Below, one piece after another: positions 1,439 through 3,598 of a stretch of 64,000 nt of DNA. This DNA comes from Escherichia phage FEC19. The position numbers and the translations under genes are program-made. The stretch is from sequence record MH816966, one strand, 5' to 3'. The first letter of the stretch is position 1, and each line of letters begins with the position of its first letter. The notes beneath the pieces were generated by a model. The model was not told the DNA's origin and did no database searches. It saw only the letters and a program-made list of their open reading frames with translations.

Positions 1439-1466
1439 AGTATAATACAGGCAAATAAAAAGGCAA
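1439..1466 (-). promoter_or_regulatory. sigma70-like promoter for 1108-1410
   Basis: Minus sense TTGCCT-16-TATACT; -35 lies inside the upstream terminator stem. Confidence 0.4.
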
Positions 1467-1485
1467 GCATTTAGCTCACCTTTTT
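1457..1485 (-). terminator. rho-independent terminator (copy 1 of a duplicated cassette)
   Basis: Minus-strand RNA 5'-AAAAA GGUGAGC UAAAU GCUUGCC UUUUU-3'; the stem uses G-U wobbles that pair only in the minus-sense transcript. Confidence 0.5.
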
Positions 1486-1488
1486 GAA

Positions 1489-1749
1489 TTAAATATTCTT
1501 CGCCTCTTCGTGGAGGCCGACCGACCTTAGTTTTCGTCGCAAGTAAGCTTTCTTTTCACTCTCCCGCCCGGCTGGAGTCACGCGCCAGCGTAATGTGTTC
1601 TCCAGATTCTTGCGTCGGTTGTGCTTGTCGAGTAGCTCTACCAGTGCCTTTGCGTCGTCGAGTGTTAATGCCACGGGCCGCGACCCATTAACGGCTTGTC
1701 GAAGCTTCCGCGCGGCAACGGCTAACTTAGTCATCGGACCTTTGTTCAC
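1489..1749 (-). CDS. hypothetical basic protein (86 aa)
   Basis: ORF followed directly by a hairpin terminator; Arg/Lys-rich, possible nucleic-acid binder. Confidence 0.45.
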   Translation of the reverse strand: MNKGPMTKLAVAARKLRQAVNGSRPVALTLDDAKALVELLDKHNRRKNLENTLRWRVTPAGRESEKKAYLRRKLRSVGLHEEAKNI

Positions 1750-2129
1750 GGCAACTCCTTATTCATAGGCGTGATAGACAACACCTTTACGTCTGTGATG
1801 TCACGGTTGTATTCGCGCTTGATTTGTAGAATCTGGGATTGGATGCGCGCGATAAAGTGCCACGTGATGCCTTCCTTAACGTTAATCCAGGCCGCAAGCT
1901 GAATTGAATCGATTTCACTTCTCAATGTCATCGGTCTGTAAGCAGCACTTTGTGCACCATAAGCAGGCTGTGTATCGTAAGCTGAATACTTGAATGACAC
2001 CAAGAACATTCTTTCTTCAAGCTGACTCTCGCTATTAGGATTCTTATCACAATTAGCCATGTGTCGCAAGAACTCTTCATGCGGAAGATGCATCACATCG
2101 TGACAATACGGACAACGTTTCATTCTCAT
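1746..2129 (-). CDS. small zinc-finger-like protein, paralog A
   Basis: N-terminus KRCPYCHDVMHLPHEEFLRHMANCDKNPNS parallels the neighbouring gene (C-P-x-C ... H ... C ... NPxNS); start chosen to avoid overlap with the upstream stop. Confidence 0.5.
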   Translation of the reverse strand: MRMKRCPYCHDVMHLPHEEFLRHMANCDKNPNSESQLEERMFLVSFKYSAYDTQPAYGAQSAAYRPMTLRSEIDSIQLAAWINVKEGITWHFIARIQSQILQIKREYNRDITDVKVLSITPMNKELP

Positions 2130-2130
2130 T

Positions 2131-2415
2131 TTACACCTCATGCAAGAAAGACAAAGATTTGATGCAGACTATTTCTTTTCCAGATACTTCCTTTATTGTA
2201 TCCAGCAGGCTTTCATACGCCTTTTTGGTGATCACCATTTCTTTCGTGGTAACGATTCCTGTTGCGCCTGAGCCGTCGTCTGCTTCCGCGTGATAATGAT
2301 AATAGTAACGCGTCGAATTTTCAGGATTAGCTTCACAAACGTTAACGTGATGTAAATATTCTTCAACAGGAAGTCGCATAGTTAACAAGCAATGTGGGCA
2401 GCGTTGCACCTTCAT
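2131..2415 (-). CDS. small zinc-finger-like protein, paralog B
   Basis: N-terminus QRCPHCLLTMRLPVEEYLHHVNVCEANPENS; tandem paralog of 1746-2129. Confidence 0.5.
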   Translation of the reverse strand: MKVQRCPHCLLTMRLPVEEYLHHVNVCEANPENSTRYYYHYHAEADDGSGATGIVTTKEMVITKKAYESLLDTIKEVSGKEIVCIKSLSFLHEV

Positions 2416-2648
2416 TTTGCATACTCCATAGCATATTGCTGCAGCTTAAACGCAGCCTTTTGTAATTGTTTGTGACGTTCAAATAACGTCTCACGCTTTT
2501 CAGCAGGGCAATCGGCGCGAAGCATTGTTATGGCAACGCTTGACATAGCATTCAATAAAAACTGAAAACGAGACACCATTCTCAGCTCATTACGCTTGTT
2601 GAAAGACAGCTTACCCAGCGCGGCATTCATAATTGCACCTCGACACAC
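2412..2648 (-). CDS. hypothetical protein (78 aa)
   Basis: ORF overlapping the upstream gene by 4 nt. Confidence 0.4.
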   Translation of the reverse strand: MCRGAIMNAALGKLSFNKRNELRMVSRFQFLLNAMSSVAITMLRADCPAEKRETLFERHKQLQKAAFKLQQYAMEYAK

Positions 2649-2944
2649 GATTCACTAGCCTTGAATCCCCAGCCTTCCAGACCGACTTCGCCGCAGTAAC
2701 GCGCCATTGCACGCTCATCCAAGAACCAACCGTGATATTGCTCTATGTACTTTGGTTTTTCTGAATAACAGTGAATGACTCCGTCGTCATCAATGGCCAC
2801 GTAACGCGTGCCAGGCGCGACTGGTACAACTACGTTTGGGTGGACGATTGGCCAAGGCTTGATGTGTACGGCTGTGTCTAACTTAACGTTTGGCACCCTT
2901 GAAAGGTCTTTGTAAGCGCCCTCGTCCATTCCTAAGTAAATCAT
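2627..2944 (-). CDS. hypothetical protein (105 aa)
   Basis: ATG at 2944 preceded by GAGGTGA; downstream of the duplicated promoter/terminator cassette. Confidence 0.5.
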   Translation of the reverse strand: MIYLGMDEGAYKDLSRVPNVKLDTAVHIKPWPIVHPNVVVPVAPGTRYVAIDDDGVIHCYSEKPKYIEQYHGWFLDERAMARYCGEVGLEGWGFKASESCVEVQL

Positions 2945-2976: not shown

Positions 2977-3005
2977 AGTATAAGTATTGATAAAAGAAAA
3001 GGCAA
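2977..3005 (-). promoter_or_regulatory. sigma70-like promoter for 2627-2944
   Basis: Minus sense TTGCCT-17-TATACT; duplicate of the 1439-1466 arrangement. Confidence 0.4.
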
Positions 3006-3024
3006 GCATTTAGCTCACCTTTTT
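2996..3024 (-). terminator. rho-independent terminator (copy 2 of the duplicated cassette)
   Basis: Same 30-bp sequence AAAAGGCAAGCATTTAGCTCACCTTTTTGA as at 1459-1488. Confidence 0.5.
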
Positions 3025-3029
3025 GATAT

Positions 3030-3362
3030 TCATTTTACATAGTGGAGTAGGTCAATCTCTATCTCGTGCCTTGTCCTTGTTATCTTTGTATCACCCGTCC
3101 TGTGGGAGACTTGATGGAAGAAAGAGTCTTTGTGAGCGCATCGTTCAAACATCACGCTGGCAAATCTGCAGCCGCATATTGCATCAAGCTTTGCTCCGTT
3201 AGACAAAAGGTTGAATGTCAATACAGTGTTATCCATCCTTGCATTTTGCTTGATGCAGGACTTTAAGAAGGCGTAAGAATCGGCAAATGATTTGTGCCTT
3301 TTACAAATATCTTTAACCTTTTCACGCTCATGCGCGGCGAGTATCTGATCACGTGTCATCAC
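3030..3362 (-). CDS. hypothetical protein (110 aa)
   Basis: ORF in operon context, followed by the terminator at about 2996-3024. Confidence 0.45.
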   Translation of the reverse strand: MMTRDQILAAHEREKVKDICKRHKSFADSYAFLKSCIKQNARMDNTVLTFNLLSNGAKLDAICGCRFASVMFERCAHKDSFFHQVSHRTGDTKITRTRHEIEIDLLHYVK

Positions 3363-3598
3363 TGCACCTCTGTTATTCCGGTAATGCGAACGATTACGGT
3401 GTCATCTAAATTGAACTGCTGCCGCGCGACGCGCTTGATGTCGTCCTTAAGGTCCGCAATCAACTCCCTTGTTAACACTGTACGCTCTGAGACGTCATAT
3501 TGAACGTCAAAGGTATACTCGCCATAAAATACCGCGCCATTGGGAAGTTGTACGACATAGAATGCCATGTACATTGCATTGATATAATCTTCCATCAT
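3359..3598 (-). CDS. hypothetical protein (79 aa)
   Basis: Start refined to the internal ATG forming an ATGA overlap with the upstream stop. Confidence 0.4.
   Translation of the reverse strand: MMEDYINAMYMAFYVVQLPNGAVFYGEYTFDVQYDVSERTVLTRELIADLKDDIKRVARQQFNLDDTVIVRITGITEVQ

What the first reader, a model, noticed from the sequence alone, without database searches (positions are those of the whole stretch)
1746..2415. Tandem paralogous small zinc-finger-like early proteins
Adjacent genes begin with near-identical Cys/His motifs (RCPYCH ... H ... H ... C ... NPNS versus RCPHC ... H ... H ... C ... NPENS) and then diverge completely. Duplicated, rapidly diverging zinc-binding early proteins are often host-factor binders or anti-defence proteins.
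Basis: seen in the sequence. Interest (0 to 1): 0.4.

Follow-up and report, generated by a model that had tools for sequence, protein, structure and literature searches.

The report
Paired orphan zinc-finger phage genes
Two neighbouring small genes of an E. coli phage (genus Wifcevirus) encode related proteins that share a zinc-finger head on a small body; they are real, conserved genes found only in this phage group, and their function is still unknown, so the finding is genuine but fairly ordinary.

Summary
On the minus strand, gene B (2131-2415, 94 aa) and gene A (1746-2129, 127 aa) open with the same module: CPxC-x13-H-x3-C followed by NP. They share 15 of 36 residues, with identical spacing (z = 14 against shuffles; hhalign probability 97%). 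The four ligand residues never vary across all alleles seen.

The window is Escherichia phage FEC19. A is in all 27 Wifcevirus records. B is in 11, scattered over mutually incongruent local trees, so it is an accessory cassette moved by recombination.

Both genes are under purifying selection (dN/dS 0.145 and 0.07). They are therefore not "rapidly diverging" among orthologues.

An exhaustive HMMER scan of 1.84 billion proteins found only these two families and one weak orphan hit. No Pfam, PDB or fold match gives a function.

My best guess, which is inference only: zinc-stabilised protein-binding adaptors made from a five-gene, probably early, operon. A nucleic-acid-binding role is the main rival. 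Early timing and any anti-defence role are untested.

The parts
2131..2415 (-). Gene B: 94-aa protein (stop 2131-2133, ATG 2413-2415). Accessory paralogue, present in 11 of 27 Wifcevirus records.
   Evidence: ORF. tblastn distribution. dN/dS 0.07 over 9 loci. Its ATG overlaps the stop of the upstream gene (ATGA).
2308..2415 (-). Finger module of B, residues 1-36: MKVQRCPHCLLTMRLPVEEYLHHVNVCEANPENSTR. Ligand motif C6..C27 lies at 2335-2400.
   Evidence: The AF2 model of B is poor in this stretch (pLDDT below 50, alignment of only 2 sequences).
2134..2307 (-). Body of B, residues 37-94. Predicted strand 37-45, strand 50-57, helix 64-78, strand 82-91.
1746..2129 (-). Gene A: 127-aa protein (stop 1746-1748, conserved ATG 2127-2129). 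Present in every Wifcevirus record.
   Evidence: dN/dS 0.145 over 23 loci. The ATG at 2141 is not conserved in relatives.
2022..2129 (-). Finger module of A, residues 1-36: MRMKRCPYCHDVMHLPHEEFLRHMANCDKNPNSESQ. Ligand motif lies at 2049-2114.
   Evidence: AF2 gives strand 4-5, strand 12-13, helix 17-26 (pLDDT about 68-77).
1749..2021 (-). Body of A, residues 37-127. Predicted long hairpin (37-51 and 69-83) with a variable loop 52-68, then helix 90-106 and strand 111-122.
2134..2139 (-). GAGGTG Shine-Dalgarno-like sequence formed by the last two codons of B, 4 nt upstream of the ATG of A. One base separates B's stop from A's start, which suggests translational coupling.
   Evidence: Read directly from the sequence.
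2997..3023 (-). Terminator-like hairpin, followed by a sigma-70-like promoter match (TTGCCT-N17-TATACT, 3005-2977), upstream of the five-gene unit.
   Evidence: A terminator is annotated at the equivalent place in phage WFC.
1458..1483 (-). Second exact copy of the same 26-nt terminator hairpin, downstream of the unit, followed by TTGCCT-N16-TATACT (1466-1439).
   Evidence: 2 exact copies in the window, 0 expected by chance.
2627..2944 (-). First gene of the unit: 105 aa, acidic, PHROG 1972 (unknown function).
2412..2630 (-). Second gene of the unit: 72 aa from the ATG used in relatives (78 aa from a GTG at 2648). Basic, pI 10.1.
1489..1749 (-). Last gene of the unit: 86 aa from GTG (81 aa from ATG). 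Very basic, pI 11. Its start overlaps A's stop.

Best explanation
A and B are real protein-coding genes. They are co-transcribed and probably translationally coupled, and they descend from an old tandem duplication inside the Wifcevirus lineage.

Each protein has two parts. The first is a single N-terminal Cys2-His-Cys finger of the beta-beta-alpha kind (CPxC-x13-H-x3-C), closed by a conserved N-P turn. The second is a small strand-strand-helix-strand body.

A is a core gene of the genus. B is a dispensable cassette that recombination moves in and out between the same flanking genes.

The most likely mechanism is inferred, not shown. The zinc site rigidifies a small docking surface and the body supplies a second surface, so the proteins act as adaptors that bind a host or phage protein during takeover of the cell. 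Under this reading they are not sequence-specific DNA-binding regulators.
For: Shown:
- Homology of the finger, with invariant ligands and spacing.
- Beta-beta-alpha prediction for A.
- Purifying selection on both genes.
- The family is confined to Wifcevirus after an exhaustive scan of 1.84 billion representatives and word-index searches.
- A is in 27/27 records and B in 11/27.
- B presence is scattered on incongruent local trees.
- In B-less phages, A sits directly after the same upstream gene.
- The unit is bounded by two copies of a terminator/promoter cassette.

Bearing on mechanism (weak):
- The fingers are near neutral (pI about 6.8), B is acidic overall (pI 6.0) and A is neutral (pI 7.8).
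- Glu18 at the start of the finger helix is at least 90% conserved, and position 19 is also Glu in most alleles.
- There is a single finger rather than an array.
- The only relaxed or indel-rich part of A is a surface hairpin loop.
- Wifceviruses resist all tested defence systems but one, with no known mechanism (PMC11990801).
Against: No partner, phenotype or expression data exist for either protein.

The models are only moderate (mean pLDDT 71 and 63), and the finger of B was not modelled.

Beta-beta-alpha fingers classically bind nucleic acids.

Bas98 (has B) and Bas99-101 (lack B) show no reported difference in defence sensitivity, so B at least is not needed for that resistance.
Confidence: 0.45

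Rival explanations
1. A and B are nucleic-acid-binding regulators. The beta-beta-alpha finger and the alpha/beta body would contact phage or host DNA or RNA, for example to control the early-to-middle switch or mRNA fate. They might act together with the two very basic proteins of the same operon.
Confidence: 0.3
2. This is module shuffling rather than whole-gene duplication. One mobile finger-coding segment was joined by recombination to two unrelated bodies, so only the first 36 codons are homologous.
For: Sequence similarity stops sharply at residue 36. A third, divergent finger allele sits on an otherwise conserved A body in contig L010: 67% nucleotide identity to the window's A finger and 53% to B. 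The one outside hit, P0033, has a similar finger on a different protein.
Confidence: 0.2
3. B is a selfish mobile cassette, such as a remnant of a homing-endonuclease-type element with a zinc-finger DNA-binding head, and has no role for the phage.
For: B has a patchy distribution unrelated to the local phylogeny. There is a weak match of A residues 5-63 to the N-terminus of PHROG 15137 'endonuclease', E = 0.009.
Against: B is 94 aa with no nuclease domain. It always occupies exactly the same slot, with overlapping start and stop codons. It is under the strongest purifying selection of the five genes, dN/dS 0.07. Homologous flanks alone explain gain and loss.
Confidence: 0.04
4. The resemblance is a chance CxxC/H/C coincidence, or the ORFs are not genes.
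For: None beyond the shortness of the motif.
Against: z = 14 against shuffles, with identical spacing and invariant ligands across alleles. dN/dS is far below 1 in both genes.
Confidence: 0.01

Closest known systems
Cys2-His-Cys beta-beta-alpha zinc fingers (Pfam zf-C2HC_2 PF13913, ZNF512_C2HC PF21276, zf-Di19 PF05605; the dual CCHC fingers of the CCHF virus Gn tail, PDB 2l7x)
   Same: Ligand order C-x2-C ... H-x3-C. The second half lies on a helix. A hydrophobic residue sits before the helix. AF2 predicts a beta-hairpin plus helix for A. There are weak profile matches: ZNF512_C2HC E = 0.0015, zf-Di19 E = 0.0042, 2l7x E = 0.067.
   Different: All matches are below the family thresholds. The Cys-to-His spacing is 13, whereas the aligned 2l7x finger is two residues shorter. 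The conserved N-P turn after the last Cys and the fusion to a small alpha/beta body are not features of those families. Those families are eukaryotic or from animal viruses.
Pfam DUF7501 (PF24333), an uncharacterised family; HVO_1252 of Haloferax volcanii is annotated as a DUF7501 domain protein (PMC12091111)
   Same: It is the only Pfam family hit by all 12 finger alleles, best E = 2e-5. The match covers the finger only (profile positions 11-34 of 58).
   Different: The window proteins score 14.5-18.2 bits against a cut-off of 27. DUF7501 has no known function, so nothing would be learned even if they were related.
Small zinc-finger regulators of phages, such as Ogr/Delta of P2/P4 (PF04606)
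   Same: They are small phage-encoded single zinc-site proteins that act by binding a host protein, RNA polymerase (my own knowledge). This is the kind of mechanism proposed here.
   Different: Ogr/Delta use four cysteines and have a different fold. Only 1 of 12 alleles gave a match, at E = 0.13. There is no evidence of relationship.
Small alpha/beta phage inhibitors of host proteins (T7 Gp2, PDB 2wnm/2lmc; phi29-type p56, PDB 2le2/8ail)

Membership tests
Beta-beta-alpha (classical-type) zinc finger, Cys2-His-Cys variant | Four ligands in the order C-x2-4-C-x~12-H-x3-5-(H/C), invariant among homologues | tested here: met
   C6-x2-C9-x13-H23-x3-C27 in both A and B. The four residues are invariant in 12 alleles while the positions between them vary.
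Beta-beta-alpha (classical-type) zinc finger, Cys2-His-Cys variant | Beta-hairpin carrying the two Cys, followed by a helix carrying His and Cys | tested here: inconclusive
   The A model gives strands 4-5 and 12-13 and helix 17-26, at pLDDT about 68-77. The B model has pLDDT below 50 here, from an alignment of only 2 sequences.
Beta-beta-alpha (classical-type) zinc finger, Cys2-His-Cys variant | Binds one Zn2+ ion | not testable with these tools
   Needs metal analysis of purified protein.
Pfam DUF7501 (PF24333) | Score at or above the gathering cut-off of 27 bits | tested here: not met
   14.5 bits for full-length A and 18.2 bits for its finger alone. All 12 alleles match weakly, best E = 2e-5.
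Pfam zf-C2HC_2 / ZNF512_C2HC / zf-Di19 | Significant profile match | tested here: not met
   Only 1-2 of 12 alleles match, with E = 0.0015 to 0.11.
Ogr/Delta phage late-gene activators (PF04606) | Cys4 zinc site and a profile match | tested here: not met
   The ligand set is CCHC, not CCCC. One allele matches at E = 0.13.
Rad18/UBZ4-type ubiquitin-binding finger (C-x2-C-x11-H-x3-C; pattern recalled from memory) | Spacing of 11 between Cys2 and His, and a profile match | tested here: not met
   The spacing here is 13. No such family was listed at E up to 10, although HMMER filters may drop very weak matches.
Phage early / host-takeover genes | Transcribed in the first minutes of infection by host RNA polymerase | not testable with these tools
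   The only support is sigma-70-like consensus matches next to terminator hairpins and the surrounding array of small ORFs. I found no transcriptome for any Wifcevirus.
Anti-defence proteins | Neutralises a bacterial immune system | not tested
   No anti-defence library is available. The literature gives only the genus-level phenotype.

The most novel reading that the evidence does not exclude
A and B could found a Wifcevirus-specific family of zinc-finger adaptors. The conserved finger would dock on one hub, such as RNA polymerase or a defence or restriction component. The divergent bodies would give different outputs. That could contribute to the unexplained insensitivity of these phages to nearly all tested E. 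coli defence systems, or to their reported very fast takeover of the host.
Probability: 0.15. Interest if true: 0.55.

Novelty: new member of a known kind. Interest (0 to 1): 0.25.

Why it matters
Wifceviruses are candidates for biocontrol of E. coli O157. They are reported to replicate unusually fast and to resist almost all tested defence systems without a known mechanism (PMC11990801). Nearly all of their small early-region genes are uncharacterised.

This analysis gives correct gene models for two of those genes. It shows that both genes are under selection, and that one is core to the genus while the other is accessory. Natural strains with and without B exist in the BASEL collection (Bas98 against Bas99-101), so deletion and pull-down experiments can start directly.

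Beyond that, this is one more orphan phage zinc-finger family, and nothing here points to a new principle.

Tried and rejected
- Full-length A and B against Pfam, PHROGs and NCBIfam gave nothing above threshold. The PHROG 15137 'endonuclease' match (E = 0.009) covers only the finger region, and I treat it as finger-to-finger noise.
- PDB sequence searches with A alone and with a finger profile gave nothing significant. The best hit was 2l7x, E = 0.067.
- tblastn against 50,697 phage records gave only Wifcevirus. The Vibrio phage hits (E = 9) lie antisense inside a large annotated gene and are spurious.
- Word-index searches with A, B and P0033, plus one exhaustive HMMER profile scan, found no relatives outside the genus. 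The only exception is the orphan metagenome protein P0033 (E = 2.8e-4), on a 3-kb contig with no informative neighbours.
- I tested whether the B-like finger allele on A in contig L010 arose by recent gene conversion from B. It did not: nucleotide identity to B is 53%.
- I tested whether the 78-aa neighbour at 3359-3595 is a finger-less paralogue. hhalign was not significant, E = 0.14 and 0.044.
- I looked for a link between B presence and host or clade. None is evident.

Full report
**What is at the coordinates**

The interval 1746-2415 holds two adjacent ORFs on the minus strand.
- B runs 2415 to 2131 and encodes 94 aa.
- A runs to 1746. Its ORF opens at an ATG at 2141, but every relative begins MRMKRCPYC, and the sequence upstream of that is not conserved. 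The real start is therefore 2129, which gives 127 aa.
- One base separates B's stop from A's start. The last two codons of B form GAGGTG, 4 nt before A's ATG.
- B's ATG overlaps the stop of the upstream gene, and A's stop overlaps the start of the downstream gene.

**Is the resemblance real?**

Yes.
- BLASTP aligns residues 1-36 of both proteins without gaps: 15 identities, 25 positives, E = 2e-10.
- The local score is 94 against 22.8 +/- 5.0 for shuffles. This is z = 14.2, with 0 of 3000 shuffles reaching it.
- hhalign of the two family alignments gives 97% probability over columns 1-35 only.
- Both proteins read C6-P-x-C9-x13-H23-x3-C27-x2-N30-P31.
- In a six-frame scan of the whole window, the motif with the shared flanking residues occurs only at these two places.
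- In 12 distinct alleles collected from relatives, the invariant columns are M1, C6, P7, C9, L15, H23, C27 and P31.
- Beyond residue 36 there is no detectable sequence similarity (z = 0.9).

**Where the window comes from**

The window is Escherichia phage FEC19, genus Wifcevirus.
- The database protein from FEC19 is 100% identical to A over the 91% of A that it covers.
- The BFVD self-hit is A0A386KM45 of FEC19.
- The region is 84-95% identical to 27 Wifcevirus records.

**Are they genes?**

I extracted the five genes of the unit from 23 Wifcevirus loci and computed Nei-Gojobori dN/dS.

| Gene or region | dN/dS |
|---|---|
| A (whole) | 0.145 |
| A finger | 0.09 |
| A strands and helix | about 0.10-0.12 |
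| A hairpin loop, residues 52-68 | 0.41 |
| B (9 loci) | 0.07 |
| Two upstream genes | 0.28 each |
| Downstream gene | 0.18 |

Both are therefore real genes under purifying selection, and are more constrained than their neighbours. 'Rapidly diverging' does not describe the orthologues.

The paralogues themselves are old. The finger-coding parts are 51% identical in nucleotides, with only 14 of 36 third codon positions matching.

**Distribution and evolution**

- A is found in all 27 Wifcevirus records. B is found in 11: Ro157lw, WFH, ECML-117, WFC, Bas98, TH35 and ECP_WGS_SA1, some of which appear in duplicate records.
- In B-less phages, A follows the upstream gene directly. It has the same upstream context that B has in two-gene phages.
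- Neighbour-joining trees of the upstream genes, of A and of the downstream gene disagree with one another, and B presence is scattered over all three. B therefore behaves as an accessory cassette exchanged by recombination through its homologous flanks.
- One metagenomic contig (L010) has B plus an A whose finger is a third allele. That allele is 67% identical in nucleotides to the window's A finger and 53% to B, and it sits on an otherwise conserved body. The finger segment is thus itself mosaic.
- The exhaustive HMMER scan of 1.84 billion cluster representatives, using an A+B profile, returned only the A family, the B family and one weak hit. That hit is P0033 (E = 2.8e-4; CPYCKDV..EEF..H...C.ENP, spacing 11). 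It is an orphan on a 3-kb contig without informative neighbours.
- The related Pbunavirus phages evidently lack the family.

**Structure**

- AlphaFold2 on a 31-sequence alignment of A gave mean pLDDT 71. It predicts strands 4-5 and 12-13 and helix 17-26, which is a beta-beta-alpha finger. These are followed by a long hairpin (37-51 and 69-83), helix 90-106 and strand 111-122.
- B had only two sequences in its alignment and gave mean pLDDT 63. Its finger is not modelled with confidence. Its body is predicted as strand 37-45, strand 50-57, helix 64-78 and strand 82-91, which is the same order as in A.
- The shared neighbours are generic two-layer alpha/beta domains: eL20/LX, NE1680 (2hfq), PurS and flavoprotein subdomains. 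None gives a functional lead.
- Foldseek against BFVD found only uncharacterised small phage proteins, at E of 0.013 or weaker.
- I conclude that the two proteins probably share their whole architecture. This favours whole-gene duplication over module shuffling. It rests on moderate-confidence models and an indirect comparison.

**What kind of finger**

- Scanning the 12 finger alleles against Pfam, all 12 hit DUF7501, with best E = 2e-5. The window proteins score 14.5-18.2 bits against a cut-off of 27.
- A few alleles touch ZNF512_C2HC, zf-Di19 and zf-C2HC_2.
- The best PDB sequence match of the finger profile is the CCHC finger of the CCHF virus Gn tail, 2l7x, at E = 0.067.
- The module therefore belongs to the general class of Cys2-His-Cys beta-beta-alpha fingers, but to no described family.

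**Context**

- The same 26-nt terminator hairpin occurs exactly twice in the window, at 2997-3022 and 1458-1483. Each copy is followed by a sigma-70-like promoter match and a ribosome-binding site. Terminators are annotated at the equivalent sites in phages WFC and WFH.
- Between these two copies lie five tightly packed genes:

| Gene product | Property |
|---|---|
| 105 aa | acidic |
| 72 aa | pI 10.1 |
| B | pI 6.0 |
| A | pI 7.8 |
| 81-86 aa | pI 11 |

- This looks like a host-polymerase-transcribed, and hence probably early, mini-operon. I found no transcriptome for any Wifcevirus.
- The BASEL study reports that Bas98-101 are insensitive to all tested defence systems except EcoP1_I, without a known protective mechanism. 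It reports no difference between Bas98 (has B) and Bas99-101 (lack B).

**Mechanism**

The following are shown:
- two selected, co-oriented, tightly coupled genes;
- a shared finger with invariant putative zinc ligands;
- a common predicted architecture;
- a core versus accessory distribution.

The rest is inferred. I favour zinc-stabilised protein-binding adaptors acting on a host or phage protein, for these reasons:
- each protein has a single finger;
- the finger is near neutral and begins its helix with conserved acidic residues;
- B is acidic overall;
- the only relaxed part of A is an exposed hairpin loop.

The main rival is nucleic-acid binding, which is the classical role of this finger class. 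The ribosomal and p6-like structural neighbours and the basic operon partners hint at it. The present evidence cannot separate the two.

**Verdict**

The family is an orphan one, made of a known kind of module, and its function is unknown. Interest is modest.

Noticed in passing
window 1458-1483 and 2997-3022 (minus strand): An exact 26-nt repeat, AAAGGTGAGCTAAATGCTTGCCTTTT, forms a terminator-like hairpin. Each copy is followed by a sigma-70-like promoter match (TTGCCT-N16/17-TATACT) and a ribosome-binding site. Read as protein, these cassettes create spurious ORF starts such as MLAFLFACIILSSSSKGE.
   Followed up: partly
window 1746-2415; L001 3347-4016 (Bas98): Public gene models are inconsistent. 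The FEC19 record starts A at internal Met13 (115 aa), which cuts off the CPYC pair. The Bas98 record extends A to 156 aa and omits B, calling a 34-aa ORF in another frame instead.
   Followed up: yes
window 3359-3595 (minus strand): A 78-aa ORF in the next operon appears, by eye, to have the same hairpin/helix/strand pattern without a finger. BFVD also returned a 78-aa ECML-117 protein (I7ATL4) as a weak structural match to A. hhalign was not significant (E = 0.14 and 0.044), and I did not confirm that I7ATL4 is this ORF's orthologue.
   Followed up: partly
L010 2501-2893 (Logan ERR2001076 contig): This A orthologue carries a third, divergent finger allele (MRTKRCPYCLKTMQLSVESFMDHVASCDKSPDFS) on a conserved body, next to a normal B. 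It shows that the finger-coding segment is exchanged independently of the body.
   Followed up: yes
window 1489-1749 and 2412-2630 (minus strand): The two operon partners are very basic (pI 11 and 10.1). The 86-aa protein has a faint Phage_ProQ_C_like match (E = 0.3). They are possible nucleic-acid binders co-expressed with A and B.
   Followed up: no
window 1489-2944 and the equivalent stretch in 22 related loci: Local gene trees for the upstream genes, A and the downstream gene are mutually incongruent. This indicates frequent recombination within about 1.5 kb of this region among Wifceviruses.
   Followed up: partly
window 2389-2407 (plus strand): A terminator-like hairpin lies antisense inside the start of gene B. 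The number of such matches in the region is close to that expected by chance, so it is probably meaningless.
   Followed up: no
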